DNA of 64,000 nt from Kaistiaceae bacterium (GTDB lineage Bacteria > Pseudomonadota > Alphaproteobacteria > Rhizobiales > Kaistiaceae). Every line of letters starts with the position of its first letter. The first letter of the stretch is position 1. The notes below the pieces were generated by a model. The model was not told where the DNA came from and ran no database searches. It saw only the letters and a program-made list of their open reading frames with translations. Made by a program: the position numbers and the translations under genes. Positions 24,539 to 38,723 of the stretch are shown here, piece after piece. The stretch is from contig CAXXUZ010000003.1 in NCBI GenBank assembly GCA_963667605.2, forward strand, positions 1,558,992 through 1,622,991. The letters run 5' to 3'.

Positions 24539-25557
24539 CTATTCGGCCGGCGCCAGCCGAGTGGGCCGATCAGGAAAATAGGCCCAGCGTGGTCGCTCGA
24601 ACAAGAACCGAAACCAGGTGTTGCGAACAGTCCAGAACAGGATCAGTGGCACCACCGACGCGACCACCCACACGATCACCGACATCAACCCGATATCGGT
24701 AACGATTCCGAGCGAAATCAGCACCTCGTGGGTTGCCGCCATCGGGATGAAGAAGGCGAGATAGAGAACAATCGAATTGGCACCACAGTAGCGCACCGGC
24801 GCCATCAGATCGCTTGTCGACAACAGCGAGGCCGCGGCAACAACAGCGGCGGCGCCGGCAAGGCCGAGCGCCAGCGAGATGCCGGGAAGCAGTGCGAGGC
24901 CGGTGAAGACGAGGGCGCCATTGCTCAGAGCCCAGCCAACGAGCAGCAGGCCGGCGAGCCAGCGTCGATCGATCGCCTGCTGCGCCAAACGGAATATCTG
25001 CGGTGCGAAGATATAGCCGGTGTAGAAATAGACGAAGCGCGAGGCGAATTCGTCGATCACCATCCAGCCGGTATTGATCGGCGCGATCTGTAGTGCGGCC
25101 GCCACCAACCAGACGCTCCACCATGGGAAGCGCCGGGTCAGCTTGGAGACGACGAAGAAGATCGGCAGCACATAGATGAACCAGAGGACGCCGAAGGGTT
25201 CGATGAAGGAAAGCAAGAACAGCTCACCGACGCCGCCCCAGCCCAACTCCGTGGCCATGCTCGGTGCCTTGAAAGCGAAATTTAGGATCAGCCAAAGAAT
25301 GTAGAAATAGACGTAATGGACGACCTTCTTATCGAGATAATGCCGCCAGTCGCGATCGATCGCGCGGGCTAGGAATAGGCCGGCAATCAGGAAGAAATCG
25401 GGCATCCGAAACGGTTTGGCGAAGGCCACGACCGGATTGAGCCAGCCTTCCTCGCCGATTGCGGCTTCGACGCCCAGCGTCGAAGCCGCATGATGATAAG
25501 AAGGATGCAGATGCCCTTGGCGTAGTCCACCCACTCGACGCGGCTGGTCGTGCTCAT
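24539..25557 (-). pseudogene. Acyltransferase-3-family membrane protein with an apparent frameshift near 25485-25495
   Basis: From the ATG at 25557, one frame gives MSTTSRVEWVDYAKGICILLIIM, then the sense is lost. The listed ORF 24539..25534 resumes in another frame with HHAASTLGVEAAIGEEGWLNPVVAFAKPFRMPDFFLIAGLFLARAIDRDW.... Total length is 1019 nt, which is not a multiple of 3. Confidence 0.65.
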
Positions 25558-25813
25558 GGCCTCATTCCACCGACTAGAATAATCCGCTAACTGAACGCGC
25601 CGGGATGATAGGACCGAACCGCTGTATTTGAGTTGGATTCTTGGCTTTAACCTTAAGGCCCAGCCCGCCTGTTATGAAGCGATCTGGGGATCGTTGCGCG
25701 ATCAATACGATAGGGTCCGGTGGTGGGTGGCTCGCCTATCGTCGCCAAGGTCTTGGGACGGCGCTTCATCGGGGGCGAGCGCGATAGTCCGAGTAATCCC
25801 CCGTTTGGCTGCG

Positions 25814-26350
25814 CTAGTACTCCGGGTGCCAGTTCAGGCCAACATGCACAAGCGTGCCGTCAAAACCGCCGCCGAAACCGCCGAGGGCCAGGGCTTTACC
25901 GAACACCGACAGGGAGCTGTCGATGGCGAACTCAACCCCGCCGCCGGCTACCCAGGCAGGCCCAGGGACGCCGACGCCAACTTCGGCGAAGAGTAGGGCG
26001 CTCCCGCCGAGCAAAACGCCAAACCTTCCAGTCAGAGCGGCGTCAAGGGCAAAAGTGGGTCCGGGATGAATCTGAGCGGCTACCGCGCCTTCGATGCCAA
26101 CCAACATGTTGTTGAAGACAAAATTATAACCGGCCTGCAGCCCCGCACGCCAGTTGCCGAACACAAATGCAGAGTCAAAGAACGCCCCGCCATGGGCTCC
26201 CAAATAGGGCCCGGCCCAACCGAACGAAGGCACGGGAGCTGCAACAACGGCCGACGTTACGACCGGGAGAATTGGATCGGCCGCCTTTGCCCCTTCGGTG
26301 ATCAGTGCCGCACCCGCGACACCGAGCATCAATGCTTTGCCAAGTTTCAT
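25814..26350 (-). CDS. Outer-membrane beta-barrel protein (Omp25/OmpA-like small porin family)
   Basis: Signal peptide MKLGKALMLGVAGAALITEGAKA, alternating Gly/aromatic beta-strand pattern, and a C-terminal aromatic-rich strand ...VGLNWHPEY. Confidence 0.7.
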   Translation of the reverse strand: MKLGKALMLGVAGAALITEGAKAADPILPVVTSAVVAAPVPSFGWAGPYLGAHGGAFFDSAFVFGNWRAGLQAGYNFVFNNMLVGIEGAVAAQIHPGPTFALDAALTGRFGVLLGGSALLFAEVGVGVPGPAWVAGGGVEFAIDSSLSVFGKALALGGFGGGFDGTLVHVGLNWHPEY

Positions 26351-26524
26351 AATCTGGCCCTCCAAAGACCAACGTTTAGCCCGAAGGAGACCTCTCCTTT
26401 AACCCCATTCCAAAGCAACGAAAAGTCCAACCAGATAGCGGGTCAAAACACGTCAGGTAGAGACTGGGACTTCGGCGGGCGCGGATTGTTGGCCCTTTGA
26501 GCTGCCACATCCGCGCGGCACAAA

Positions 26525-27526
26525 TCAATCAACGAAATCGATCATGTTCGAGAGCAGTTGGATCTTTTCCAGTCGGCTGAGATCGCCGGCGAAAGCGACG
26601 GCTGCTTCCGCCGCTGCGAAGGCGGCTGCCTCGTCTCCGCAGCGAGCATAGGCGCGAGCTGCCCGAGCTGTCGTGATCGCGCGTACAACCACTGGCACCG
26701 CGGCAGCAGGTAGCGCGTCCAGGACGGCCAGTCCGGCTTCGATCAGTTCAATTCCGGCTTGCGCGCCGTCAACGGCACATGTGCCGCCGGCAAGGGATAC
26801 CGCATTCGTCGCTTTGATAAAGGACGGCGCGACGAGTGAATCATTGACGGCGATTCCGGCCGCCACAGTGCATGTCGCCCCGTCGAGATCGTCCGCTCTA
26901 TGCTGCGCCCATGCGATTTCCTACGCGATCGGGATTTGAAGTCGGCTTGGCTCGATCGACTGCATCGCGGCAAATGCCTCGTCGAGGGTTGCTATCGCGG
27001 CGTCGAGATCTCCAACCCTTTGCTGCGCCACCGCTATACCAAGCAGAGCCCTGATTTCTGGCTGAAGAACGGCTATCAGCCTTGCTCCCTCAAGTGCCCC
27101 GTCTATATCGCCGGCAAAGGCCGCCCGGGATTGCTCGACCGCCGCGACGAAACCTGGATCCGTCATCTGACGCGTGGCGGAGCTAGGAATTGGCACCAAG
27201 ATGAGTTCATCCCGGCTTAGGAGCAGCGTGTGATACCAAAACGCCCAGAGATGATCGGCCTGTCCCGGCTCTGTGTTTTCGAGGAGCCGCTGCATGTCAT
27301 TGGCAAAACACACATCATCAAACGGTTCGAATGCACACAGAAATGCGTCACCAAAGATCTGCGCGACGCGCACGCCGCCACTGCGGATCTCGCCGTGGCC
27401 AATTTTCCCGGGGAAGATTTCGCTATTAGCTGCATTCGGCGAAAAGGCCAGCCCAGGGGGCAATATCGATCCAGCAGTTGCTCCAGCCAGAAGCAAACCA
27501 AGACAAACAAATTTGTCGGTGTTCAT
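26525..27526 (-). pseudogene. Secreted helical-repeat (TPR-like) protein interrupted by one in-frame TAG at 26921-26923
   Basis: ORFs 26921..27802 and 26525..26866 are in the same frame (26923-26866=57) and are separated only by the TAG. Read-through gives ...SRLQIPIA*EIAWAQHRADDLDGATCTVAAGIAVN.... Signal peptide MNTDKFVCLGLLLAGATAG starts at the ATG at 27526. Repeated GD(L/I)D.A motifs. Confidence 0.5.
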
Positions 27527-27688
27527 CTCGCCATCCCCATCTCGCCACGGCCCTGCGGCACTTTTGTCAACTGTGATTGTATCACTGGCCAGCGAATCTT
27601 CGCCAACCGACACTCGTCGGCGGATTGGCGCATCTTCCTGGCAAGCTCCCATGTTGATTTGAGCGCCGAAACATGATCGGAGGGGGCC

Positions 27689-28219
27689 ATGGAACGACCA
27701 TATTTGTGGATAAAGCGCGGCATCTTGGCCGGTGCTTTTGTCATGGTTTTGACGCTTGACGCGATCCCAAAAAGCGTGGCTCCAGTGGCAGATGAGGTTC
27801 AACTGGATCCGGCAATGGCCGCGTTGATAAAGGCTGCCGATCCGGCGGTTGGGGAGTCCGTTGTCAGAATTTGTTCAGGTTGCCATTCCTTTGGCCGGGG
27901 CGAGGGACCCGTGGTCGGGCCCAACCTATACGGCATCGCTGACGCTCCCATCGGGAGGGCGAAGGGATATGAGTATTCCGCCGGAATGACAGCCCTAAAA
28001 GCCGCCGAGGCGACATGGTCTCTTGCCCGCCTTGATCGGTTCCTGACCTCGCCGGCGGCGTTTGTGCCGGAGACCGGAATGGGCTTCCCGGGAATAGCCG
28101 ACGACAACGACCGAGCCGCTCTCATCGCATATCTAGTGACGCTGTCCGTTGATTTGGTGCCGCTGGGCGACGCTGGTGCCCCGAGCGTTGAGCCACCATT
28201 GGGCGGCAGGAAGCCGTAG
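27689..28219 (+). CDS. Membrane-anchored class I c-type cytochrome
   Basis: N-terminal TM helix, haem-binding CSGCH and a distal Met region (PETGMGFPG). Cytochrome c2/c550-like fold motifs (GPNLYG..., ...LIAYL). Confidence 0.8.
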   Translation: MERPYLWIKRGILAGAFVMVLTLDAIPKSVAPVADEVQLDPAMAALIKAADPAVGESVVRICSGCHSFGRGEGPVVGPNLYGIADAPIGRAKGYEYSAGMTALKAAEATWSLARLDRFLTSPAAFVPETGMGFPGIADDNDRAALIAYLVTLSVDLVPLGDAGAPSVEPPLGGRKP

Positions 28220-28359
28220 AAGAAGCCGTCCAGCAAAACATCCAAATTGTCAGGCCGAGCATAAATTTTCCGAGCGGCTCACCGGCCCCTGATGTTGCCT
28301 GAGCTTGGTTTGAGCACCGATTGGTGCCCCTGCTTGGAGACCTAACCGTCTGTTTTAAT

Positions 28360-28435
28360 TGGCTCCCCGGGCCGGACTCGAACCAGCGACCCAGCGGTTA
28401 ACAGCCGCTTGCTCTACCAACTGAGCTACCGGGGA
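28360..28435 (-). tRNA. tRNA-Asn (anticodon GTT)
   Basis: Reverse complement folds as acceptor TCCCCGG/CCGGGGA, anticodon arm AGCGG-CTGTTAA-CCGCT, T-loop TTCGAGT, encoded CCA. Confidence 0.95.
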
Positions 28436-28620
28436 CCGTGCGCTATGGCGGCGCTGGCTATAGCAAAGCGGTCGATTGTTTGCCAAGCCAAAACGCCCCA
28501 TGTTTGATCCGTTTGAGGTGCAAGACTTGCGTTTGCGACCGTCAGGGCACAGTTTGAAGGGCAAGGGGTGGTCCGAGTTCGGCTCGCGGCAGGCCCGAAA
28601 ATCGGGACCGTTATCCCCAA

Positions 28621-28884
28621 ATGCCTACAATTCGAGTCTTCAAACTCCGCTTCAATGTCCCGGCCAATCGGGCAGCGCGAGCCGCCCTTGGCGGCGGACT
28701 GGTTGCCGGCGGGGTGCTCGGCTTTCTTCCCGTGCTCGGCTTCTGGATGATCCCGGCCGGCGTCCTGGTCCTAGCCATCGACTTTCCGGTCGTCCGTCGC
28801 TGGAACCGCCGCGCCACCATACGCTTTGCGCGCGCTTGGAATGGATTTCGGCGGAAGCAGCGTTCTTCGCCGGGATCGACCTAG
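28621..28884 (+). CDS. Small two-helix membrane protein (PGPGW-family-like)
   Basis: GGGLVAGGVLGFLPVLGFWMIPAGVLVLAIDFPVVRRWNRR resembles the PGPGW small membrane protein family. Confidence 0.5.
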   Translation: MPTIRVFKLRFNVPANRAARAALGGGLVAGGVLGFLPVLGFWMIPAGVLVLAIDFPVVRRWNRRATIRFARAWNGFRRKQRSSPGST

Positions 28885-29187
28885 GGCGAATCCAAGCCCA
28901 TCGTGTCACTCGGTTGAGTTCTCTAGCGAGCCGCCGGAAGGCCTCTCCCTCGATATTAAGGCCGGAATAGGTAGTTAGCCAGGGCTTAACGGGCAGGGTT
29001 GACAACGGGTGGTGATAGACGACGTTGGAGAGCGGCTCCGCCGAGGCGTCTATCTTCGGCGGGTACGGCTGCTTCAGCGGGCCTCTACGTTCCTTCGGTC
29101 ACTCGCATCTGCTTGCGGGACTCATGCTTGTTGTGTTCCTTCCCGCCTATCCAAGTCTCATCGACCTCCATGGGGCCAGCAAAGGTT

Positions 29188-30639
29188 CTATGTTCTCGGT
29201 GCTGGTGTACCAGGAAGTACCGGTTGAGGCTCATGGCGTCCGGCGACCGTAGGCGTCTTGAATCGCTTTCCCTCTAAGATTTCCCCGACCGTCAAGAGTT
29301 GCATCTTCGGGTACTCGATTCCGAGTATTTCCAGCGTTCCAGCGTCGGCCATGAAGCTGCGGGCCTTAGTCGTTCCCAGCGGCTGCATGACGATGAGACC
29401 GGCCATAAGTGCCGTATCGTAGTCAAGGACGCCCTTCAAGGCTCTCAGGTCGCTTATGGATGGGTTGGCCCCGCCCTTCACCTCTACGACCATGCTCTGC
29501 AAGTCCTGGGCGTGTGGTACGGCAAAGTATACCCGCCCGTCGATCCCGCCGTCGGCGGACCGTTTCGTCGTTACAAAGCCGTCCGCCTGCTCGACCGCCC
29601 ACTTCTGGAAATGGTACTTGTCCCGCTCCCATAGGTCCTGTGCGCCCTCAACCGTGCGCGGGACACCCTCAACGGTAAAGTCCTGCCCTTCCACCAGTCC
29701 AAGCCGTTCTGTCAGCCGCACGCGGGCTACGCGCTTCACCGCGTGGATGGCTATGTCTATGCCTATCCACTTCCGTCCTAGATTGTGAGCCGCTTCCATC
29801 GTCGTAGCGCATCCGCAGAAGGGGTCGAGAACGACATCGCCAGGGTTGGAACTGGCCGCGATGATGCGCTCCAACAGGGCCAGGGGCTTCTGGGTTGCGT
29901 AGCCCATGCGCTCCTTGGACTGCGAATTCAAGACGGGGATTTGCCAAACGTCACCAGCCCTTACGCCTTTCTCGTCTATCGACGTGATGTAAACATCGCC
30001 GTCTTTTATCCGCGTGTGATAGTTCTGCTTCCGTTTCAACGACTTTGCGGTGTAAGGATCATATTGGACATTGAAAAGCCGATTGGTATTCGACTTGCCA
30101 TAGAATAGGATGGTGTCATGCAACCGCTGGAATCGCTTAGCCTTACCCGTCCAGCGTCGGTAATGCCAGATGATTTCATTCTGGAAGCTCCCATGCTCAA
30201 ATATAGCATCCAAGAGCGGCTTCACATAGTGACTTGCGGTCGGGTCACAGTGGAAGTAGAGGCTCCCTGTAGGTTTCAGAATCCGGCGCATGATCAACAA
30301 TCGTTGCACCATGTATGACAGATACGCCAGTAGGCGGGGCTGTGTCCCTCGGAGTGCGTTCATCCACAAACGCCAGAACTCGACCATCGCGTCGTCGATG
30401 CCGTTCTCGCGCATCAGGACGGGCATGGTGCGGATGGCCTGCTCCCGTTCGGCGTCCAGCTCCCACATATCGCAGAACGCCTCTATCTGGTCGGGAAGAG
30501 GACGGCCCGTCTCGTCCCTGTAGATCGCGTTGTACTGGCGTTGTGAGTTGAAAGGTGGATCGAGGTAGATTAGGTCCGCGCTGGCAAGCGGGAACTCCTG
30601 CATAATCGTGAAGCAGTCGCCGTAGTAAAGACGATTCAC
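29188..30639 (-). CDS. Beta-class N6A/N4C DNA methyltransferase fused to a C-terminal Mrr/PD-(D/E)xK-like restriction-endonuclease domain
   Basis: VNRLYYGDCFTIMQEFPLASADLIYLDPPF (motif IV DPPF) precedes VLDPFCGCATT (motif I), which indicates beta-class order. The C-terminal region SADGGIDGRVYF...SMVVEVKGG resembles the Mrr_cat core. The GTG start at 30639 overlaps the transposase stop (GTGA). Confidence 0.85.
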   Translation of the reverse strand: MNRLYYGDCFTIMQEFPLASADLIYLDPPFNSQRQYNAIYRDETGRPLPDQIEAFCDMWELDAEREQAIRTMPVLMRENGIDDAMVEFWRLWMNALRGTQPRLLAYLSYMVQRLLIMRRILKPTGSLYFHCDPTASHYVKPLLDAIFEHGSFQNEIIWHYRRWTGKAKRFQRLHDTILFYGKSNTNRLFNVQYDPYTAKSLKRKQNYHTRIKDGDVYITSIDEKGVRAGDVWQIPVLNSQSKERMGYATQKPLALLERIIAASSNPGDVVLDPFCGCATTMEAAHNLGRKWIGIDIAIHAVKRVARVRLTERLGLVEGQDFTVEGVPRTVEGAQDLWERDKYHFQKWAVEQADGFVTTKRSADGGIDGRVYFAVPHAQDLQSMVVEVKGGANPSISDLRALKGVLDYDTALMAGLIVMQPLGTTKARSFMADAGTLEILGIEYPKMQLLTVGEILEGKRFKTPTVAGRHEPQPVLPGTPAPRT

Positions 30640-31505
30640 GCGACTGCCTCCTGGAGAAAGCCCTCGAAGACGTTCTCGGAGTTCCGCGCGTTGTACTTGT
30701 AGCAGGACTCCACAACGTAGGCGATGGAGTGCTCGTCGGTGTAGTGGTGGTGTGTCCCGTACCACGCCCGCTTTAGCAGAGACCAGAAGCCCTCTATCGT
30801 GTTCGTGTGGGCCAGGCCGTCGACGTAGTGGGTCGAGTGGTCGACCGTGATGTGCCGCATATGTCGGCGCATCTGCCGGTATCTGGCCCAGGCATCCGTG
30901 ACCAACAGGGCCGCGCTGTCGACCGTGTCGTTGAGGAATGACGTAAGGGCCGCGACGTCGACCTTCAGAGACGGTTTGGCTACGACCTTCCCGCCGCGCT
31001 CGACCGCGCCGATGACCGGGAGCTTGTCTGTACCACGTCCACGCGTGGAGGGCCTATAGCCGTCGCGCCTGTTGGGCTTACGGGGCTCGCCGCCGACGTA
31101 GGCTTCGTCCGCCTCGACGAAGCCGGATAGCAGCGCGCCCTCGTCCACCATCGCCCGCCGTATCCGCATCGCCATATACCAGGCGGTCTTCTGATTCAGG
31201 TCTAGGTCTCTGGCAAGCTGATGAGACGACAGGCTTTTCTTGGAGTTGAGAACCAGGGAGATCGCCAGGAACCATTTCTGTAGCTCGATCTTGGTCTTCT
31301 GGAAGATGGTTCCCGACAAGACATTGAAACTGGACTTACAGCCGCGGCAATTCCAACGCCCGATCCGGTCGCCGTCGGCTTTGCGCCCTACCGTGACACA
31401 CCCACAAAGCGGGCAGGCTGGTGTATCATGCCAGCGCACGCGCTCTAGGTGCTCTATACAGGACTCGTGATCGGGGAATCGCTGGAAGACTTTGATGAGG
31501 TCCAT
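30636..31505 (-). CDS. IS1595-family transposase (zinc ribbon plus ISXO2-like DDE domain), intact
   Basis: CIEHLERVRWHDTPACPLCG...WNCRGCKSSF (Zn ribbon), VEADEAYVGG, LVTDAWARY and HTNTIEGFWSLLKRAWYGTHHH. Confidence 0.9.
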   Translation of the reverse strand: MDLIKVFQRFPDHESCIEHLERVRWHDTPACPLCGCVTVGRKADGDRIGRWNCRGCKSSFNVLSGTIFQKTKIELQKWFLAISLVLNSKKSLSSHQLARDLDLNQKTAWYMAMRIRRAMVDEGALLSGFVEADEAYVGGEPRKPNRRDGYRPSTRGRGTDKLPVIGAVERGGKVVAKPSLKVDVAALTSFLNDTVDSAALLVTDAWARYRQMRRHMRHITVDHSTHYVDGLAHTNTIEGFWSLLKRAWYGTHHHYTDEHSIAYVVESCYKYNARNSENVFEGFLQEAVA

Positions 31506-31565
31506 ATCGTCAACCCTCTGTGTGATAAGAGGATTGTATCTGAGCCTCCCCCGATTGTCAAGCCC

Positions 31566-31856
31566 CTAACTACTTATTCCGTTGACGAATTGGCTAATCC
31601 TCACGTCATCGTCGTAAATTGGTGCGCTCTCTGGCGGAAGCGATGAGGTTGCGAGTATCAACAGGTCTCGGAGAAACGAGTTGATCGCGGTGTCAAAGAA
31701 GACCTTTTGCTTTCCGCCAACCTTCTTGCCACCCCACATTTGGTCTATTCTGTCAAAAGCTCCGAGCACGTGCGCCATCGTGTTGGCGCGGCCGCGAAGC
31801 TCGTCGGCTTTGGTGACGAGGTTGGCTATGGTGTCATTCGACGCTGTGCGCGGCAT
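31566..31856 (-). CDS. Hypothetical ORF whose last 5 codons lie inside the IS1595 right inverted repeat (probably a truncated gene)
   Basis: 96-aa ORF in lower-GC DNA between the IS end and tRNA-Cys, ending ...RISQFVN|GISS* with the bar at the IS boundary. No family recognised. Confidence 0.3.
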   Translation of the reverse strand: MPRTASNDTIANLVTKADELRGRANTMAHVLGAFDRIDQMWGGKKVGGKQKVFFDTAINSFLRDLLILATSSLPPESAPIYDDDVRISQFVNGISS

Positions 31857-31938
31857 TCGGGGTGAGACGCTCTATTCGGCTGGGCTGGCCGGGGTTGATT
31901 CGCAACAACGCAGATAGACTAGCGATTTCAACAGGAAT

Positions 31939-32012
31939 TGGAGGCCTCGCCCGGAATCGAACCGGGGTGCACGGATTTGCAGTCCGCTGCGTAACCACTC
32001 CGCCACGAGGCC
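31939..32012 (-). tRNA. tRNA-Cys (anticodon GCA)
   Basis: Reverse complement folds as acceptor GGCCTCG/CGAGGCC, anticodon arm GCGGA-CTGCAAA-TCCGT, T-arm CCCGG-TTCGATT-CCGGG, encoded CCA. Confidence 0.95.
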
Positions 32013-32140
32013 GTCCATCGCCGGATGTACAGACCGTTGCGCGACCCGACAAGCCCCGGCATGGACGGCAAATCGACGCCGAACTTGTCAGCGTCGACCG
32101 GCAACGGTAATCCATGCGGGCCGGACGTCGGGGAGAGGCT

Positions 32141-32812
32141 ATGACTGATTTCGCTGAGGCGCGGCGGACGATGGTTGATCGGCAGATCCGCACCGTCGAC
32201 GTCACCGACGCCGATATTCTGGACGCCATCGGCGGGGTTCCCCGTGAATTGTTCGTGCCGCCGGAGTTGCGGTCGCTGGCCTATACCGATGCCGATTTGC
32301 CGATCATCCAGGCCAAGCCGGGGGAGGAGCGGCGGTTCTTGGTTGAGCCGGCGATCCTGGCAAGGCTGATCCAGCTCGCGGAAGTCGGACGAGATGATAT
32401 CGTCCTCGATATCGGATGCGCCACCGGGTATTCCTCCGCGGTGCTATCACTGCTCTCCAATTCTGTCGTCGCGCTCGAGACCGATCCTGACTTGGCCGGG
32501 TCGGCGACCGAAACTCTGCTCGACCTTGATATCGGCAATGTCGCGGTGGTGACTGGAGCACTCCCGGCGGGCTACCCGTCCGAAGGCCCCTATGATGTGA
32601 TCCTGTTGGCAGGGTCCGTGGAAGACTTGCCGGACGCCCTGTTTGACCAACTCAAGGAGGGTGGCCGGCTCGTGACAATTGTCGGGATCGGGCCGGTTGG
32701 AATGGCGAACTTGTTTCAAAAGACCGCCGGCGAGATTTCGCATCGGGAAGCTTTCAACGCGCCCGCGCCGCCTTTGCCCGGTTTTTCCATGGCCAAGTCC
32801 TTTCAATTCTGA
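32141..32812 (+). CDS. pcm: Protein-L-isoaspartate O-methyltransferase
   Basis: MVDRQIRTVDVTDADILDAIGGVPRELFVP...VLDIGCATGYSSAVLS (SAM motif)...GRLV. Confidence 0.85.
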   Translation: MTDFAEARRTMVDRQIRTVDVTDADILDAIGGVPRELFVPPELRSLAYTDADLPIIQAKPGEERRFLVEPAILARLIQLAEVGRDDIVLDIGCATGYSSAVLSLLSNSVVALETDPDLAGSATETLLDLDIGNVAVVTGALPAGYPSEGPYDVILLAGSVEDLPDALFDQLKEGGRLVTIVGIGPVGMANLFQKTAGEISHREAFNAPAPPLPGFSMAKSFQF

Positions 32813-32956
32813 CCTCCTGACCGCCGGATACTCTGTCGAATTTCATGAGAATTCGGTGCTGCCGGGCTTTGACTTGCCGGCGGATCGGGTTCTCCTGTCG
32901 CGCAATTGTCGCAATTGATTCGAAACGGCCCTATTGCGGCGAGCAGGAGAGCACCG

Positions 32957-33817
32957 ATGGCCCAGCCCGACCAAGCCCCGGACACTTCGATGGAGGAGAT
33001 CCTGGCTTCGATACGGAAGATCATCGCCGAAGACGGGGTCGATCCCGACCCGGTGCGGCCTCCGCGTTTGGCTGTGGTGCCCGGCCCGGACGAAGACGAG
33101 CCCGCGGAGCCCGCCGAAACCGCAGTCTTGCAGCAAGAGCGCACCGCGCCGGACCTGGCGGCAGCAGCGGATGCTGATGAGGACCTGGATCGGGCCGACG
33201 AACCAACTGGCTTGGCCGAAACCGCTGCCGACCCCGTTCCGGAGGCCGAAGCGGAACTCGGAGAGAGCGATTCGCTACGCGAGGAGCTCGACTCCGATCC
33301 GATGATCGCGGAGCCGACAGATGAGGCCGCGGCGGATGAGTCAGCCGAACCTGCCGCTAACGTTGTTGCCGAGGATGGATCTCAAGAGGTGGTATCTTCC
33401 GACGGGCCTGCCATCGGCTTGAGCAATCTTGCAGCCGAGGAATCGGAGGGAACGGTCGGCGCGCCGTCGGAGGACGATCGGCCGCCTCGCCCGACGCCGG
33501 CAATAGAGGCCATCGCCGCCGCAATGGCCGCAGGCACTGCTGAGCCAGACGAGAAGACCTCCGAGGATCGGCTCCTGTCGCCACGCACCGATGAGGCGGT
33601 GAAAGCCGCTTTCGACCGGCTGGCCCATACCATCTTCACCGATCAGGTCCAGACTTTGGAGGAAATGGTGAAGGACATGATGCGGCCGATGCTGCGGCAC
33701 TGGCTTGACGACAATCTCCCGGTCCTGGTCGAACGACTCGTCCGCGAGGAGATTGAACGAGTCTCACGCGGCAGCGCTGACCGCCGATTGTTGACGACTG
33801 GTCATTTGTCCGACTAG
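32957..33817 (+). CDS. DUF2497 / PopZ-like acidic protein
   Basis: N-terminal MEEILASIRKIIAEDG, a long acidic Pro/Ala/Glu-rich linker, and a conserved C-terminal LEEMVKDMMRPMLRHWLDDNLPVLVERLVREEIERV. An AGGAGA SD lies upstream of the ATG at 32957. Confidence 0.75.
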   Translation: MAQPDQAPDTSMEEILASIRKIIAEDGVDPDPVRPPRLAVVPGPDEDEPAEPAETAVLQQERTAPDLAAAADADEDLDRADEPTGLAETAADPVPEAEAELGESDSLREELDSDPMIAEPTDEAAADESAEPAANVVAEDGSQEVVSSDGPAIGLSNLAAEESEGTVGAPSEDDRPPRPTPAIEAIAAAMAAGTAEPDEKTSEDRLLSPRTDEAVKAAFDRLAHTIFTDQVQTLEEMVKDMMRPMLRHWLDDNLPVLVERLVREEIERVSRGSADRRLLTTGHLSD

Positions 33818-33856
33818 GACCGACAGTCACGTAGCTAGTGCGGTAACACCCGGAAA

Positions 33857-36616
33857 ATGCTGGACAAGACCTACGATGCGGCAATTATCGAGCCGCGAGT
33901 GAGCGCTCTGTGGGAAACCACTGGGGCGTTTAAGGCCGGCGCCGGTGCCAAGCCCGGCGCTGATGTGTTCTCCATCGCCATCCCGCCGCCCAATGTGACG
34001 GGTTCGCTCCATCTGGGGCACGCTCTTAACAACACGCTACAGGACATCCTCGTTCGCTATCACCGCATGCGCGGCTTCGACGTGTTGTGGCAGCCGGGCA
34101 CCGATCACGCGGGCATTGCCACCCAAATGGTGGTCGAACGCCAGATGATGGAGCGGCAGGAGCCGAGCCGCCGCGATCTAGGGCGTGAGCGATTCATTGA
34201 GAAGGTGTGGCAATGGAAGGCTGAATCTGGCGGTCAGATTATCAACCAGCTCAAGCGCTTGGGTGCTTCTTGCGATTGGTCGCGCGAACGTTTCACCATG
34301 GACGACGGCCTGTCACAAGCGGTGGTCAAAATATTCGTTGACCTCCATCGCCAAGGCCTCATCTATCGTGACAAACGCCTGGTCAATTGGGATCCGAAGC
34401 TACACACGGCCATCTCCGACCTGGAGGTTCAGCAGGTCGAAACGGCCGGCCATCTATGGCATTTCCGCTATCCGATCGAAGGCAGCGAACATACCATTAC
34501 CGTCGCCACCACCCGACCGGAGACAATGCTAGGCGACACCGCAATAGCAGTTCATCCGGATGACGAGCGATATCGGGAATTTGTGGGTCAGCACGTCATC
34601 CTGCCGCTGGTCGGCCGCCGCATTCCCATCGTCGCCGACGACTATGCCGACCCGGAGGCCGGCTCCGGCGCGGTCAAGATCACGCCGGCTCATGACTTCA
34701 ACGATTTCGAAGTCGGCCGCCGTCACGGCCTGTGCCAGATCAATGTCTTTGACATTGGAGCCAATCTCGTCCTTGCCGACAACGAAGCTTTCCTCGCCGA
34801 TATTCCGTCGGGTGGAGAGCTGAGTGCGACGATCGAAATACTGCATGGGCTCGACCGGTTCACAGCTCGCAATCGAATAGTGGCAATGATGGAAGAGCGA
34901 GGCCTCCTCGAACAGATCGAGGATCACGCAAGTGCGATTCCGCATGGCGATCGGTCGGGGGTGCCGATCGAGCCGTTCCTCACCGACCAATGGTATGTCG
35001 ACGCCAAGACCCTGGCTGCTCCGGCGATCGAGGCGGTTCGCTCGGGTGACACCCAGTTTGTGCCAAAGAACTGGGAGAGAACCTATTTCGACTGGATGGA
35101 GAACATCCAGCCCTGGTGCATCTCGCGGCAATTATGGTGGGGACACCAGATTCCGGCATGGTACGGCCAGGACGGCAAGGTCTTCGTCGCCGAGACCGAG
35201 GAAGAGGCGGTGGCCGAGGCGCTGGCACATTATGTGGTCGAAGGCGCCATAACCGATGCCGAGGCTCGCCGTTTCGCTGACGATCCGACGGCCCGGGCCG
35301 ATTTCCTCACTCGTGATCCCGACGTACTCGATACCTGGTTCTCATCGGCGCTCTGGCCGTTTTCGACCCTTGGCTGGCCGGAGCAGACTCCGGAATACAA
35401 ACGCTATTATCCAACCAGCGTCCTCGTCACCGCCTTTGACATCATCTTCTTCTGGATCGCCCGGATGATGATGATGGGCATACATTTCACCAAGGTCGAG
35501 CCGTTTCCGACGGTTTACATTCACGGCATCGTTCGCGACGAGAAGGGCGCGAAGATGTCGAAATCTAAGGGGAACGTCGTCGATCCTTTGGAGCTGATCG
35601 ACGCCTATGGCGCCGACGCCGTTCGCTTCACCATGGCCGCGCTTGCGACCCCCGGCCGCGACGTCAAGCCGGCGCGATCGCGGATTGAGGGCTATCGAAA
35701 TTTTGCGACTAAGCTGTGGAATGCGGCCCGGTTCGCCGAGATGAACGGGTGCGAAACACGCGCCGATTTCGACCCGGCCGCGGTTTTGCAAACGGTCAAT
35801 CGGTGGATCGTCACCGAAGCCGCGCGAGCACAGGCCGCGATCGAGGAGGCGGTAGCCGAATTCCGCTTCTCCGACGGCGCAACGGCGACCTACCGCTTCG
35901 TCTGGAACACCTATTGCGATTGGTATCTGGAGCTGGTGAAGCCGCTGCTCGCCGGCGAGGACGGAGCGGTTAAGGACGAAACCAGGGCTACAGTCGCCTT
36001 CGTTCGCGACCACATTCTGAAACTCCTTCATCCGTTCATGCCTTTTGTCACCGAAGAACTCTGGGAACGGACGGCACCGGAGAGCGTTCCCAGAGACGCG
36101 CTTTTGGCGGTGTCGGATTGGCCCCGGCTTGATTTCGAGGATGAAGCGACCGCCGACGAAATGAATTGGGTGGTCGACCTTGTTGGGCAAATTCGATCGA
36201 CGCGGACCGAAATGAATGTCCCGCCGGGGGTGCAAATGCCTTTGTCGCTAATGAGTTCGGAGCATGTCGCCGATCGCATTGGTCGGCATCGTGCTTCGGT
36301 CGCCCGGCTTGCGCGCGTCAGCGAGATCGAATTGGTCGAGGACCCGGTTCCGGGGTCAGTTCAAATCGTCGCCGGTGATGTGACCGCCTATCTCCACCTC
36401 GGCGATGTCATCGACATCGGCGGTGAGAAGGACCGGCTCGCGCGTGAATTGGAGAAGGCTGCCAAGGAGATAGCCAAGATCGACGCCAAGCTCGAAAACG
36501 AGCAGTTCATTGAAAAGGCGCCGATTGAGATCATTGAGGAGCAACGCGAGCGCCGCCGGGAAGCCGTCGCTCACAGCGACAAGCTCCGGGCCGCGATAGA
36601 GCGGCTCGAAGGCTAG
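33857..36616 (+). CDS. valS: Valine--tRNA ligase
   Basis: PPPNVTGSLHLGHA (HIGH), KMSKSKGN (KMSKS), and a C-terminal coiled coil. Confidence 0.95.
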   Translation: MLDKTYDAAIIEPRVSALWETTGAFKAGAGAKPGADVFSIAIPPPNVTGSLHLGHALNNTLQDILVRYHRMRGFDVLWQPGTDHAGIATQMVVERQMMERQEPSRRDLGRERFIEKVWQWKAESGGQIINQLKRLGASCDWSRERFTMDDGLSQAVVKIFVDLHRQGLIYRDKRLVNWDPKLHTAISDLEVQQVETAGHLWHFRYPIEGSEHTITVATTRPETMLGDTAIAVHPDDERYREFVGQHVILPLVGRRIPIVADDYADPEAGSGAVKITPAHDFNDFEVGRRHGLCQINVFDIGANLVLADNEAFLADIPSGGELSATIEILHGLDRFTARNRIVAMMEERGLLEQIEDHASAIPHGDRSGVPIEPFLTDQWYVDAKTLAAPAIEAVRSGDTQFVPKNWERTYFDWMENIQPWCISRQLWWGHQIPAWYGQDGKVFVAETEEEAVAEALAHYVVEGAITDAEARRFADDPTARADFLTRDPDVLDTWFSSALWPFSTLGWPEQTPEYKRYYPTSVLVTAFDIIFFWIARMMMMGIHFTKVEPFPTVYIHGIVRDEKGAKMSKSKGNVVDPLELIDAYGADAVRFTMAALATPGRDVKPARSRIEGYRNFATKLWNAARFAEMNGCETRADFDPAAVLQTVNRWIVTEAARAQAAIEEAVAEFRFSDGATATYRFVWNTYCDWYLELVKPLLAGEDGAVKDETRATVAFVRDHILKLLHPFMPFVTEELWERTAPESVPRDALLAVSDWPRLDFEDEATADEMNWVVDLVGQIRSTRTEMNVPPGVQMPLSLMSSEHVADRIGRHRASVARLARVSEIELVEDPVPGSVQIVAGDVTAYLHLGDVIDIGGEKDRLARELEKAAKEIAKIDAKLENEQFIEKAPIEIIEEQRERRREAVAHSDKLRAAIERLEG

Positions 36617-36685
36617 CTTCGAATCTGGGGTTCGGTGACGACAATCGCGAGAGTTCGGTCTCTTGTTCCTACCCGACCGCTTGGC

Positions 36686-38092
36686 TCAGACCGAATAGTA
36701 CATGTCGAACTCGACCGGATGCGGCATCTGCTCGAAGCGGACGACCTCCTCTTCCTGCAAAGCTAGATAGCCGTCGATCAGATCGTCGGTGAAAACGCCG
36801 TCAGCCTTGAGGAAACCACGGTCCTTGTCGAGGTTTTGCATCGCCTCGCGCAGCGAGCCTGACACAGTCGGAATCCGCTTCAGCTCGCGCGGTGGCAGAT
36901 CATAGAGATTCTTGTCGATTGGCTGGCCGGGATTGATCTTGTTTTGGATGCCGTCGAGGCCCGCCATCAGCATGGCGGCGAAAGTGAGATAGGGGTTCGC
37001 TGCCGGGTCGGGGAACCGGACCTCAACCCGCTTGCCGGCCGGTGAGGCCGCGAGCGGGATGCGGCAGGCGGCCGATCGGTTGCGGGCCGAATAGGCGAGC
37101 AGAACCGGTGCCTCATAACCGGGAACAAGCCGCTTATAGGAGTTGGTGGTGGGGTTGGCGAAGGCGTTGAGCGCCCTGGCGTGCTTGATGATTCCACCGA
37201 TATAGAACAGGCAGGTCTCGGACAGGTCGGAATATTGATTGCCGGCAAATATCGGCTTCTTGCCTTTCCAGATCGACTGGTGGACGTGCATCCCTGAGCC
37301 ATTGTCACCATAGATCGGCTTCGGCATGAAGGTCGCGGTTTTGCCGTAGGACTGGGCGACGTTGTGGATGCAGTATTTGTAGATCTGCAGATGGTCGGCC
37401 ATCGCCACCAGCGTGGTGAACTTCATGCCGAGTTCGTGCTGCGCCGAGCCAACTTCATGGTGGTGCTTCTCGACCTTGACCCCCATTCCTTCCATCGCCG
37501 CGAGCATGTCGGAGCGCATGTCTTGCGCTGAATCGACCGGCGGCACAGGGAAGTAGCCGCCTTTGGTGCGAACCCGGTGACCAAGATTGCCACCCTCAAG
37601 CGCAGCTCCCGAATTGGTCGGAAACTCGACGTCGTCCAGTTGGAATCCGGTGTTGCAGGGATCGACGCTGAAGCGGACATCGTCGAACACGAAGAACTCG
37701 GCCTCGGGACCGAAATAGGCGGTGTCGCCGATCTTGGTTTTCTTCAGATAGGCCTGCGCCTTCTTGGCCACGGAGCGCGGATCGCGATTGTAGGGTTCGC
37801 CTGTCAATGGCTCGAGCACGTCGCAAACGATCGAAAGCGTCGGATGGGCGAAGAACGGGTCGAGCGTCGCGGTCGAAACGTCGGGAAGTAGGTTCATGTC
37901 CGACTCGTTGATCACCTTCCAGCCGGCGATCGACGACCCATCGAACATCACGCCCTCCGAAAGGGCCTCCTCGTCGACAAGCGAACGGTCAAACGTAACG
38001 TGTTGCCATTTTCCGCGCGGGTCCGTGAAACGGAAATCGACATATTTGATGTCGTCGGATTTGATACGTTGCAGAACTTCCTTGGCTGTCAT
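36686..38092 (-). CDS. glnA: Glutamine synthetase type I
   Basis: [34 protein letters not shown]...GSGMHVHQS...adenylylation-loop region NLYDLPP. The start is at 38092. Confidence 0.95.
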
Positions 38093-38165
38093 GATGCCTC
38101 CCCGTGAGTTTATTGTTGCTAATTTGTCGGCGGCGTTGAGCGGTCGATGGCCTCCGATTTCGATG

Positions 38166-38561
<396 letters not shown>

Positions 38562-38567
38562 TCATTT

Positions 38568-38583
38568 AGCAGAAGGCGTGCCA
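38568..38583 (-). promoter_or_regulatory. Candidate sigma-54 (-24/-12) promoter upstream of glnB
   Basis: The minus strand reads TGGCACGCCTTCTGCT, a GG-N10-GC match to TGGCAC-N5-TTGC(A/T), about 64 nt upstream of the glnB ATG. Confidence 0.4.
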
Positions 38584-38723
38584 TCTCGAACTACCGGCAA
38601 ATCGCAGCGCAATTGCACCGAATCTGGCCATTTGATCGGTCCATTTCACACCTGGCCAGAATCATCGTGCCTGAAATATAGGCAACTGCACAGCAAAGGA
38701 GCCCGAAATACTTGATCAAGCGA

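What the first reader, a model, noticed from the sequence alone, without database searches (positions are those of the whole stretch)
28964..31580. IS1595-family element whose inverted repeats enclose a methyltransferase-nuclease fusion as cargo
Seen in sequence: the 15 nt at 28964 (GGAATAGGTAGTTAG) and the reverse complement of 31566-31580 (GGAATAAGTAGTTAG) match 14/15. Both then continue with GGGCTT(A/G)AC...GGG similarity. Between these ends lie only two genes, both on the minus strand. One is an intact zinc-ribbon/DDE IS1595-type transposase (30636..31505). The other, immediately downstream, is a 484-aa ORF (29188..30639) whose GTG start overlaps the transposase stop as GTGA, which suggests translational coupling. 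The cargo has methyltransferase motif IV (DPPF) before motif I (FCGCATT), so it is beta-class N6A/N4C. It ends in a domain of about 130 aa with GGIDG...VVEVKGG, resembling the Mrr/PD-(D/E)xK catalytic core. There is no separate restriction or specificity gene. Established knowledge: some IS1595-family members carry passenger genes. Inference: this would be a transposable single-polypeptide modification (and possibly restriction) module, a selfish epigenetic/defence cargo that moves by transposition rather than on a phage or plasmid. It sits in a tRNA-Asn/tRNA-Cys hotspot.
Basis: partly seen in the sequence, partly recalled or inferred. Interest (0 to 1): 0.7.

Follow-up and report, generated by a model that had tools for sequence, protein, structure and literature searches.

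The report
Insertion sequence carrying a methyltransferase-nuclease gene
This is a real 2.6-kb jumping gene of the IS1595 family that carries a DNA-methylating enzyme fused to a nuclease-like domain, and it belongs to a large, little-described group of such elements that spread between unrelated bacteria (many in sponge-type microbiomes) and may act as self-transposing restriction-modification modules.

Summary

**Element.** 16-nt terminal inverted repeats (28963-28978 / 31566-31581) enclose an intact IS1595 transposase, an overlapping 483-aa beta-class DNA methyltransferase (MTase) with a C-terminal PD-(D/E)xK (Mrr/MspJI-like) domain, and a 209-bp tail holding a relic of a second transposase.

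**Ends verified.** A near-identical strain lacks the element. Its homology to the window stops exactly at both repeat ends, with 3,960 bp of native DNA in between. The window copy therefore sits next to a deletion, which explains the missing target duplication.

**Moves as a unit.** In other genomes the same transposase+MTase unit sits inside the same repeats. 25 of 43 elements have perfect 8-bp duplications. One genome holds at least 11 copies that are 99.8-100% identical. All 19 transposase relatives of 60-90% identity carry this MTase.

**Cargo.**
- The MTase recognition region is a swapped cassette (13 types in 43 sequences).
- The nuclease-like domain is under purifying selection, with invariant D/E/K residues.
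- Sister elements carry MTase-HNH fusions, or a C5-MTase plus an unknown ORF.

Methylation and cleavage are untested.

**Verdict.** IS1595 elements with passenger genes, and methyltransferase passengers in other IS families, are already known. This is a new variant of a known kind and is moderately interesting.

The parts
31566..31581 (-). Transposase-proximal terminal inverted repeat (CGGAATAAGTAGTTAG); outer element end at 31581
   Evidence: (I8). The same repeat family ends 43 related elements. Homology with the IS-free allele L091 resumes at 31582.
31533..31561 (-). Promoter-like site TTGACA-17 nt-TACAAT just inside the repeat, pointing into the transposase gene
   Evidence: 11 of 12 consensus positions. 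GGGCTTGACA follows the repeat in most related elements. Function is inferred.
30636..31505 (-). IS1595-family transposase, 289 aa, zinc ribbon plus DDE domain, apparently intact
   Evidence: It aligns full-length at up to 90% identity with homologues.
30647..30652 (-). Shine-Dalgarno AGGAGG, 7 nt upstream of the MTase GTG, inside the 3' end of the transposase gene; start and stop overlap as GTGA at 30636-30639
   Evidence: Read. The same 4-nt overlap is seen in L001-L007. Other relatives have gaps of 0-120 nt.
29188..30639 (-). Cargo gene: 483-aa beta-class N6/N4 DNA methyltransferase fused to a C-terminal PD-(D/E)xK (Mrr-like) domain
   Evidence: Pfam N6_N4_Mtase 6.8e-47. PDB sequence and fold matches to M.BceJIV, CcrM, M.MboIIA and M.RsrI. 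48 of 51 IS-borne copies are intact ORFs.
29926..30162 (-). Variable target-recognition region of the MTase (about residues 160-238)
   Evidence: Mean pairwise identity is 29.5% here versus 83-86% in the flanking MTase parts. There are 13 types in 43 sequences. Window vs P0015: N-terminus 95%, this region 12%, C-terminal MTase part 97%.
29245..29667 (-). Nuclease-like C-terminal domain (about residues 325-465), motif GGIDG...VVEVKGG
   Evidence: Foldseek top hits are AspBHI and MspJI, followed by other PD-(D/E)xK folds. Homologues pass the Mrr_cat threshold. D367/E386/K388 are invariant and median dN/dS is 0.16. Catalysis is not tested.
29088..29177 (-). Relic of a second IS1595-type transposase DDE domain (GPMEVDETWIGGKEHNKHESRKQ...) in the tail between the MTase stop and the distal repeat
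   Evidence: Pfam DDE_Tnp_IS1595 E=0.0016 for a 30-aa fragment. The first ~67 nt of the tail are shared with element L008 in a Dehalococcoidia MAG, so the relic is inherited.
28963..28978 (+). MTase-distal terminal inverted repeat (CGGAATAGGTAGTTAG, followed by a 3-nt CCA insertion); outer element end at 28963
   Evidence: Homology with the IS-free allele L091 stops at 28962.
31566..31856 (-). Flanking 96-aa ORF: a truncated, IS-fused version of a 117-aa gene (context, not part of the element)
   Evidence: In L091 the ORF runs on for 117 aa. In the window it ends with 5 codons plus a stop supplied by the repeat.

Best explanation
The region 28963-31581 is a 2,619-bp transporter insertion sequence (tIS) of the IS1595 family.

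Shown:
- Its DDE transposase recognises the 16-nt terminal inverted repeats and moves the whole repeat-to-repeat unit, normally making an 8-bp target duplication.
- The unit includes a second gene, overlapping the transposase stop. It encodes a beta-class (probably N6-adenine) DNA methyltransferase with an exchangeable recognition cassette and a conserved C-terminal PD-(D/E)xK domain.
- The window copy has replaced 3,960 bp of native DNA and truncated a 117-aa gene, so it has no target duplication. This arose by insertion followed by an adjacent deletion, or by recombination between two copies.

Inferred:
- Both genes are transcribed from the TTGACA/TACAAT promoter inside the transposase-side repeat, and the MTase is translationally coupled to the transposase.
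- The cargo is a single-polypeptide modification-plus-restriction enzyme (about 50% likely). The MTase marks a short motif set by the cassette, and the nuclease domain cuts unmarked DNA. This would make the element both a defence module for the host and an addiction module that penalises its own loss.

The structural part of this statement is close to certain. The restriction function is the uncertain step.
For: Ends: the IS-free allele L091 has flanks 99.0-99.6% identical to the window, and homology stops exactly at 28962|28963 and 31581|31582.

Unit mobility:
- The transposase+MTase pair lies in three unrelated contexts.
- 25 of 43 elements have perfect 8-bp duplications around repeats that enclose both genes.
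- 11 copies at 99.8-100% identity occur in one Poribacteria genome, and sets of 3 copies at 99.96-100% in one Dehalococcoidia MAG.

Linkage: all 19 genome loci with transposase identity of 60-90% carry this MTase, as do 44 of 80 loci overall.

Cargo status: more distant full-length homologues of the fusion are stand-alone genes on plasmids and on a viral contig, with no IS1595 transposase beside them.

MTase.

Nuclease domain:
- Fold match to AspBHI/MspJI.
- Homologues pass Mrr_cat.
- Invariant E350/D367/E386/K388, and dN/dS of 0.16.

Support for a restriction role:
- Sister elements with the same repeat family carry N6_N4 MTase fused to HNH instead (L031, L038, L041), or a C5-MTase plus an unknown 252-aa ORF in at least 8 copies.
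- The recognition region is swapped between otherwise near-identical genes, as in diversifying R-M specificity genes.

Promoter.
Against: - No activity data exist for any family member that I could find.
- The window protein's own Mrr_cat score is below Pfam's threshold (18.8 vs 21).
- Distant relatives of the domain also match PF22722, a family named as an inactive restriction endonuclease domain.
- The stand-alone plasmid homologues have S-V-K instead of E-V-K, so catalysis is not a given across the family.
- The domain order (beta-class MTase first, nuclease last) differs from characterised single-chain R-M enzymes (my own knowledge).
- The window copy has an imperfect distal repeat (1 mismatch plus a 3-nt insertion) and no target duplication, so it may no longer be mobile.
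- Overlap-based coupling is not universal: gaps of up to ~120 nt occur in relatives.
Confidence: 0.8

Rival explanations
1. The element is the same mobile unit, but the cargo is only a modification enzyme (an orphan methyltransferase). The C-terminal PD-(D/E)xK domain serves as a non-cutting DNA-binding or dimerisation module. The benefit would be protection of the carrier DNA from other restriction systems, or epigenetic effects, not restriction.
For: The window protein is sub-threshold for Mrr_cat. Distant relatives hit the 'inactive REase' family PF22722 above its cut-off. Plasmid homologues have Ser in place of the second acidic residue. The C-terminal domain has no PDB sequence match. Solitary MTases on mobile elements are common (Furuta 2010, PMC2853133).
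Against: D367, E386 and K388 are invariant in all 30 distinct IS-borne genes, and the domain is under purifying selection. Sister elements independently fuse a different nuclease (HNH) to the MTase, which is hard to explain if the nuclease role were irrelevant. The recognition cassette diversifies, which is unlike conserved orphan MTases such as Dam or CcrM (my own knowledge).
Confidence: 0.3
2. The MTase-nuclease protein is an accessory transposition factor. It could be a TnsA-like second-strand nuclease, or a methylation-based regulator of the transposase or its ends, rather than a passenger.
For: Its position immediately downstream of the transposase is conserved, often with overlapping stop and start. 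Linkage is strict in all transposase relatives of 60-90% identity. PD-(D/E)xK nucleases do serve in transposition in Tn7 (TnsA; PMC3424549).
Against: Full-length homologues of the fusion exist alone on plasmids and a viral contig. Transposase relatives of 52-60% identity occur with unrelated cargo (C5-MTase) or with none detected. The recognition cassette changes freely while the terminal repeats stay conserved, so the MTase cannot be tuned to the ends. IS1595-family elements normally need one transposase gene only (PMC8101967).
Confidence: 0.06
3. The inverted repeats are a chance match or belong to a transposase-only IS, and the methyltransferase is merely a neighbouring gene.
For: The window copy has no target-site duplication and carries an imperfect distal repeat.
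Against: 0 of 100 shuffles reproduce the repeat pair. The IS-free allele breaks exactly at both repeats. 25 related elements have perfect duplications outside both genes.
Confidence: 0.01

Closest known systems
IS1595-family insertion sequences with passenger genes (transporter IS; Siguier, Gagnevin & Chandler 2009, as cited in PMC3129680, PMC11891212 and PMC2853133)
   Same: Zinc-ribbon plus DDE_Tnp_IS1595 transposase, short terminal inverted repeats, 8-bp target duplications, and extra non-transposition genes inside the repeats. Furuta et al. 2010 cite the 2009 paper for R-M systems or solitary M genes associated with IS elements.
   Different: I could not read the 2009 paper or ISfinder, so I cannot say whether this exact element type is listed. 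Here the cargo is a constant partner across a whole transposase clade (all 19 loci of 60-90% identity), is often start/stop-overlapped, and is an MTase-nuclease fusion with a swappable recognition cassette. The example quoted for the IS1595 family in the review PMC11891212 (ISNha5) carries transcription regulators.
IS220 (IS1380 family), quoted as a methyltransferase-carrying transporter IS (PMC11891212)
   Same: A single-transposase IS that carries a methyltransferase as a passenger gene.
   Different: It belongs to a different IS family. No information was available to me on a nuclease fusion, copy number or cassette exchange.
Single-polypeptide R-M enzymes, Type IIG/IIC (e.g. MmeI, BpuSI) (my own knowledge)
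   Same: One chain combines methyltransferase, recognition region and PD-(D/E)xK nuclease, with no separate R or S gene.
   Different: Those enzymes have the nuclease at the N-terminus and a gamma-class MTase. Here a beta-class MTase with an internal recognition region comes first and the nuclease-like domain is last. Activity here is untested.
Type III Mod methyltransferases (EcoP15I Mod, 4zcf; Mbo45V Mod, 7dsu)
   Same: Beta-class N6_N4 MTase with conserved N- and C-terminal parts and a central variable recognition region. PDB, fold and PADLOC MTase_III matches support this.
   Different: There is no Res helicase-nuclease partner. A small Mrr-like domain is fused instead.
Mrr / MspJI / AspBHI catalytic domains (Pfam Mrr_cat, PF04471)
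   Same: PD-(D/E)xK fold with a D...(E/Q)xK motif. These are the best structural matches, and homologues pass the Pfam threshold.
   Different: Those are modification-dependent enzymes with separate sensor domains. Here the domain is attached to an MTase. The window sequence scores below threshold.
Transposon-like mobile R-M units (Furuta, Abe & Kobayashi 2010, PMC2853133; PluTI element, PMC2875022)
   Same: R-M or solitary M genes bounded by inverted repeats, inserted with short target duplications, and linked to genome rearrangements.
   Different: Most of those units lack their own transposase inside the repeats, or are composite structures. This one is an autonomous single-transposase IS that reaches at least 11 copies per genome.

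Membership tests
IS1595 family insertion sequence | Transposase with a DDE_Tnp_IS1595 catalytic domain | tested here: met
   PF12762 1e-32. NCBIfam NF033547 at 179.9 bits vs cut-off 75.
IS1595 family insertion sequence | N-terminal zinc-ribbon domain (absent only in the IS1016 group) | tested here: met
   PF12760 2.5e-07, 31 bits vs cut-off 25.4.
IS1595 family insertion sequence | Short terminal inverted repeats at the element ends | tested here: met
   16-nt arms, 15/16 matching. The ends coincide with the breakpoints of the IS-free allele.
IS1595 family insertion sequence | 8-bp target-site duplication, in the window copy | tested here: not met
   The flanks are ATTAAGGC vs TTGACGAA. This is explained by the loss of 3,960 bp of native DNA next to the element.
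IS1595 family insertion sequence | 8-bp target-site duplication, in sister copies of the same element type | tested here: met
   25 of 43 elements have perfect 8-bp duplications. Several of the rest show swapped halves that indicate IS-IS recombination.
IS1595 family insertion sequence | Assignment to an ISfinder subgroup (ISNwi1, ISNha5, ISPna2 etc.) by end sequence and catalytic motif | not testable with these tools
   ISfinder is not available. The ends CGGAAT... and the NTIEGFWSLLK motif (E, then K seven residues later) recall the DDEK groups from memory only.
Transporter IS (IS with passenger genes) | A non-transposition gene lies inside the terminal repeats and moves with the transposase | tested here: met
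   The IS-free allele lacks both genes.
Beta-class N6/N4 DNA methyltransferase (Pfam N6_N4_Mtase) | Domain match, with motif IV (DPPF) preceding motif I (FCGCATT) | tested here: met
   PF01555 6.8e-47. Motif order is seen in the translation. Fold matches to M.BceJIV, CcrM, MboIIA and RsrI.
Beta-class N6/N4 DNA methyltransferase (Pfam N6_N4_Mtase) | DNA methylation activity and recognised motif | not testable with these tools
   This needs expression plus SMRT or Nanopore methylome analysis.
Mrr_cat / PD-(D/E)xK nuclease | Pfam Mrr_cat match above the gathering score | tested here: not met
   The window protein scores 18.8 bits vs 21. Homologues pass: L094 23.5, P0484 32.1, P0503 33.7. P0059 and P0090 carry precomputed PF04471 hits.
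Mrr_cat / PD-(D/E)xK nuclease | PD-(D/E)xK core fold | tested here: met
   AlphaFold model of residues 313-483, pLDDT 73.5. Foldseek hits: AspBHI 1.8e-05, MspJI 6.9e-05, then EndoMS, Can2, Cap4 and EcoT38I.
Mrr_cat / PD-(D/E)xK nuclease | Conserved catalytic D...(D/E)xK residues | tested here: met
   D367, E386 and K388 (and E350) are invariant in 43 database homologues and in 30 distinct IS-borne genes. More distant plasmid homologues have SVK.
Mrr_cat / PD-(D/E)xK nuclease | Nuclease activity | not testable with these tools
   Biochemistry is required.
Single-polypeptide R-M enzyme (Type IIG/IIC) | Both cleavage and methylation by one chain at a defined site | not testable with these tools
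   Only the domain content fits. The domain order and MTase class differ from characterised members (my own knowledge).
TnsA-like transposition accessory nuclease | Nuclease partner always linked to, and required by, the transposase | tested here: not met
   The fusion occurs alone on plasmids and a viral contig. Related transposases occur with other cargo or none. Requirement for transposition was not tested experimentally.

The most novel reading that the evidence does not exclude
This is more than a single capture event. A whole clade of IS1595 elements has made a DNA methyltransferase with an attached or adjacent nuclease its standard second gene, in at least three designs:
- beta-MTase fused to an Mrr-like domain;
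- beta-MTase fused to HNH;
- C5-MTase plus an unknown ORF.

These would be the smallest autonomous, self-transposing restriction-modification modules. They amplify to 8-11 or more copies per genome. They cross phylum boundaries: an alphaproteobacterial copy and a Dehalococcoidia copy share 90% transposase identity and a nuclease-domain dS of 0.03. They generate new specificities by swapping recognition cassettes. If so, they could be a major vehicle for the known enrichment of R-M genes and transposases in sponge symbionts.
Probability: 0.35. Interest if true: 0.65.

Novelty: new variant of a known kind. Interest (0 to 1): 0.5.

Why it matters
If the cargo is an active methylase-nuclease, these elements join two kinds of selfish DNA in about 2.4 kb. 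The transposon supplies mobility and copy number. The R-M-like gene supplies defence for the host and a penalty for losing the element.

That would give a concrete mechanism for three things:
- how restriction-modification specificities spread and diversify inside dense symbiont communities;
- how methylomes of unrelated bacteria in one habitat can become alike;
- how a transposon can stabilise itself.

Practical uses:
- The family offers many natural recognition-cassette swaps on a constant scaffold, which helps in learning how beta-class MTases read DNA.
- Its multi-copy, near-identical insertions mark recent rearrangements (inversions, deletions) in long-read metagenome-assembled genomes.

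If the nuclease domain is inactive, the finding reduces to an ordinary passenger-carrying IS with an orphan methylase.

Tried and rejected
**Searches that found nothing**
- PDB sequence search with the C-terminal 171 aa: no hit even at E=10.
- PHROGs with the C-terminal domain, the 96-aa flank ORF and the 252-aa sister-element ORF: nothing.
- PADLOC: only generic MTase_II/III/orphan models, and nothing for the 252-aa ORF.
- Rfam at E<=0.1 over 28200-32200: only the two tRNAs, so no known RNA partner.
- Exact look-up of the window transposase in the assembly collection: not on record.
- Viral contigs: only distant relatives of either gene, so no phage vector was identified.
- Plasmids: the transposase has no relative above 40% identity there, so no named ISfinder element could be borrowed from annotations.

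**Literature**
- Searches for ISNwi1 and ISNha5 gave only passing mentions.
- The FEMS review DOI was not held.
- The 2009 IS1595 paper itself could not be read.

**Method limits**
- The first full-length fold search was dominated by the MTase domain and said nothing about the C-terminus, so a domain-only model was needed.
- My automatic repeat finder failed on loci with weaker or distant repeats and over-extended into AT-rich duplications. I re-anchored it on the CG start.

**Ideas rejected**
- The distal repeat belongs to a separate, unrelated IS. Rejected because the same tail and repeat are inherited in L008 with a perfect duplication.
- The 80-aa inward ORF at the distal end of L001 is a shared small gene. 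Rejected because it has no counterpart in the window.

Full report
**1. Observation**

The stated repeats exist. GGAATAGGTAGTTAG (28964-28978) and the reverse complement of 31566-31580 differ at one position. With the preceding C they form 16-nt arms, 28963-28978 / 31566-31581 (pair I8). A degenerate search allowing two mismatches finds only these two sites in the 64-kb window, and none of 100 shuffles gave two. Inward of the repeats both ends continue with GGGCTT..., but the MTase-side arm has a 3-nt CCA insertion.

The genes are as described.
- 30636-31505 (-) encodes a 289-aa protein with Zn_ribbon_IS1595 and DDE_Tnp_IS1595, and it matches NCBIfam transpos_IS1595.
- 29188-30639 (-) encodes a 483-aa protein with N6_N4_Mtase at 6.8e-47.
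- The GTG start overlaps the transposase TGA, and AGGAGG lies 7 nt upstream (read).
- A near-consensus TTGACA-17-TACAAT site lies just inside the transposase-side repeat.
- The tRNA-Asn and tRNA-Cys genes flank the region.

**2. Are the repeats the true ends, and does the MTase belong inside?**

Two independent lines say yes.

The first line is an IS-free allele. A search with the neighbouring PCMT protein found near-identical strains, whose contigs I retrieved. In L091, window 25481-28962 and 31582-40000 align at 99.0% and 99.6%. The breakpoints fall exactly at the outer bases of the two repeats. Between them L091 has 3,960 bp of native DNA, including a Peptidase_S8 gene. The window's 96-aa ORF continues there as a 117-aa gene. 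So L091 is the IS-free state. The window carries the element plus a deletion of 3.96 kb, which accounts for the missing target duplication. A third allele (L092) keeps only the outer 191 bp of the element (31391-31581), next to a DDE_Tnp_1_4 gene and a phage-type integrase. L093 matches the window. The locus is therefore a real hotspot.

The second line is other copies.
- The three closest MTase homologues (98%, 85% and 83% identity) each sit directly after an IS1595 transposase in three unrelated contexts.
- Similarity to the window begins exactly at the transposase-side repeat.
- The same repeat recurs in inverse orientation beyond the MTase. In the minimal forms (L005, L007; about 2.42 kb) it starts ~19 nt after the stop codon.
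- A scan of 185,579 species-representative genomes with the transposase returned 80 loci.
- All 19 loci with 60-90% transposase identity, and 44 of 80 overall, have this MTase immediately downstream.
- After anchoring the ends on the conserved CG, 25 of 43 elements have perfect 8-bp, AT-rich target duplications outside both genes.
- Copies within a genome are 99.8-100% identical: 11 in Poribacteria OZ241378.1, and two sets of 3 in Dehalococcoidia CBDDQX01. This points to recent transposition.
- Where duplications are missing in the Poribacteria genome, the halves are exchanged between copies (for example L060 AAAATTAA/ATTCATTT and L065 ATTCATTT/AAAATTAA). That is the signature of inversion by recombination between inverted copies.

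**3. The tail**

The 209 bp between the MTase stop and the distal repeat contain a 30-codon relic of another IS1595 DDE domain (GPMEVDETWIGGKEHNKH...; Pfam E=0.0016). Element L008, in a Dehalococcoidia MAG with an intact 8-bp duplication, shares the first ~67 nt of this tail and the distal ~40 nt, but has other DNA between. The region after the MTase is thus a variable slot. The relic is inherited, not a local accident.

**4. The cargo protein**

The MTase part aligns with beta-class N6-adenine enzymes by sequence and by predicted fold: M.BceJIV, CcrM, M.MboIIA and M.RsrI. DPPF at motif IV fits adenine methylation (my own knowledge).

In an alignment of 43 homologues, residues 1-155 and 243-312 average 83% and 86% pairwise identity. 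Residues 160-238 average 29.5%, vary in length (69-151 aa) and fall into 13 types. Some pairs are 95-97% identical in the flanks and 12% identical here. This is recognition-cassette exchange.

The C-terminal domain scores below Pfam's Mrr_cat threshold in the window protein (18.8 vs 21 bits). The other evidence favours a nuclease fold.
- A 49%-identical viral-contig homologue and several more distant relatives pass the threshold.
- A domain-only AlphaFold model (pLDDT 73.5) matches AspBHI and MspJI best (E 1.8e-05 and 6.9e-05). Other PD-(D/E)xK proteins follow.
- E350, D367, E386 and K388 are invariant in 30 distinct IS-borne genes.
- Median dN/dS is 0.16 for this domain, against 0.08-0.09 for the MTase cores.
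- 48 of 51 IS-borne genes are intact.

There are also cautions. Distant relatives match PF22722, which is named as an inactive REase domain. Stand-alone plasmid homologues have SVK in place of EVK.

An exhaustive search found 1,165 representative proteins with this domain. Nine of the ten sampled also carried N6_N4_Mtase. Full-length homologues at 35-49% identity occur as single genes on plasmids (Mesorhizobium pMLa, Microbacterium, Ca. Megaera) and on a viral contig, with no adjacent IS1595 transposase. The fusion therefore pre-exists as a stand-alone gene and was captured by the IS.

**5. Sister elements**

Transposase relatives at 52-60% identity, with the same repeat family, carry other DNA-modification cargo.
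- N6_N4 MTase fused to an HNH nuclease: L031, L038 and L041.
- A C5-cytosine MTase followed by a 252-aa ORF with no family match. This is a 2,786-bp unit present at least 8 times in the same Poribacteria genome at 99.8% identity or more, with 8-bp duplications.
- Some loci have no cargo that I could detect.

Two different nucleases fused independently to MTases in one IS clade is the strongest indirect argument that the nuclease function matters.

**6. Mechanism**

Shown: this is an autonomous IS1595-type element whose repeat-to-repeat unit includes the MTase-nuclease gene. It inserts with 8-bp duplications into AT-rich sites and multiplies. It also causes deletions (the window) and inversions (Poribacteria).

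Inferred: both genes are transcribed from the promoter in the repeat and are translationally coupled. The MTase methylates a cassette-defined motif, probably at adenine. The nuclease domain cuts unmodified DNA, making a single-chain R-M-like module that defends the host and penalises loss of the element.

I put the structural account at over 0.95 and the restriction function at about 0.5.

Rivals:
- A modification-only passenger with a non-catalytic C-terminal domain (0.3).
- A transposition accessory factor (0.06). This is disfavoured by stand-alone homologues, cargo-free or differently loaded relatives, and cassette turnover against constant ends.
- A chance or neighbour arrangement (refuted).

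**7. Comparison with what is known**

IS1595-family membership is met on the transposase domains, the repeats and (in sister copies) the 8-bp duplications. PMC8101967 summarises these family features. Subgroup assignment needs ISfinder.

Passenger-carrying IS ('transporter IS') were defined on this very family. Reviews list transcription regulators for ISNha5 and methyltransferases for IS220 of the IS1380 family (PMC11891212). Furuta et al. 2010 cite the IS1595 paper among reports of R-M systems and solitary M genes associated with IS elements (PMC2853133). The category is therefore known.

What I could not find described:
- a clade-wide, often start/stop-overlapped MTase-nuclease partner;
- its alternative nuclease designs;
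- the cassette exchange;
- the high copy numbers;
- the cross-phylum spread. The hosts named include Dehalococcoidia, Poribacteria, Rhodospirillales, Rhodobacteraceae, Caldilineaceae, Terriglobia and Nitrosomonadaceae.

The window's host is probably an alphaproteobacterium, because the best named PCMT relatives are Bauldia. Many host names point to sponge microbiomes. R-M systems and transposases are known to be enriched there (PMC11410982, PMC5099237).

Compared with Type IIG/IIC enzymes, the domain order and MTase class differ. Compared with Type III Mod, the scaffold and variable centre are alike, but there is no Res partner.

**8. Verdict**

It is a new variant of a known kind: an IS1595 transporter IS with a methyltransferase-nuclease cargo. 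Interest is moderate (0.5). It would be higher if restriction activity and the habitat-wide role are confirmed, and lower if ISfinder or REBASE already list it or the nuclease is inactive.

Noticed in passing
window 28962/28963 and 31581/31582; L091 3482-7441: A near-identical strain (L091) has 3,960 bp of native DNA (Peptidase_S8 gene and small ORFs) exactly where the window has the IS. The window copy is therefore associated with a 3.96-kb deletion and has truncated a 117-aa gene to 96 aa.
   Followed up: yes
L092 5366-7450 (same locus as window ~31391-31581): A third allele keeps only the outer 191 bp of the IS, abutting a DDE_Tnp_1_4 transposase fragment and a phage-type integrase. The tRNA-Asn/tRNA-Cys interval is thus a multi-allelic insertion hotspot.
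   Followed up: partly
window 29088-29177 (-): A 30-codon relic of a second IS1595-type DDE domain lies in the tail after the MTase. Its first part is shared with element L008 in a Dehalococcoidia MAG. It may be a vestige of how the cargo was captured (two flanking IS copies?).
   Followed up: partly
L048 5764-8547 (also L049, L051, L052, L055-L058), Poribacteria OZ241378.1: A sister IS with related repeats (CGCAATAAGTAGATATGGG) and 8-bp duplications. It carries the transposase, a C5-cytosine DNA methylase and a 252-aa ORF with no Pfam, PADLOC or PHROG match. It is present at least 8 times at 99.8% identity or more. The ORF is a candidate restriction endonuclease.
   Followed up: partly
L031 6882-8414; L038 7393-8811; L041 6804-8273: Related IS1595 transposases are followed by a different N6_N4 methyltransferase fused to a C-terminal HNH nuclease. 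This is a second, independent MTase-nuclease cargo design in the same IS clade.
   Followed up: partly
L059-L071, Poribacteria OZ241378.1: Many of the 11 or more near-identical copies lack matching target duplications, but their 8-bp halves are exchanged between copies (L060/L065, and a chain through L059, L067, L064 and L066). This indicates several large inversions by recombination between IS copies. L059 and L071 have identical flanks near the two ends of the record and may be one locus.
   Followed up: partly
L001 7468-8378 vs L003/L004 7770-8740: In the 3.3-kb variant of the element, the tail (a ClpP-like gene fragment plus ~170-bp repeats also found outside the element) is inverted between otherwise 99.7%-identical contigs, so that the distal repeat points the wrong way in L003 and L004.
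   Followed up: no
L008 8620-9093: The closest intact relative carries extra DNA in the tail that begins with an IR-like CGGAATAAGG and encodes what looks like a small secreted or lipoprotein-type protein. The tail behaves as a variable cargo slot.
   Followed up: no
window 29245-29667 vs L008: The elements are mosaic. The window and the Dehalococcoidia copy L008 are 94.5% identical in nucleotides over the 3' part (nuclease-domain dS 0.03) but about 82% identical over the transposase and 5' MTase part, with an unalignable recognition cassette between. This indicates recombination among elements and very recent transfer between phyla.
   Followed up: partly
P0484, P0503, P0471 (distant homologues of window 29191-29703): Distant relatives of the C-terminal domain match Pfam PF22722 (NACHT-associated inactive restriction endonuclease 1) above its cut-off, as well as Mrr_cat. 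Parts of this domain family may be non-catalytic.
   Followed up: no
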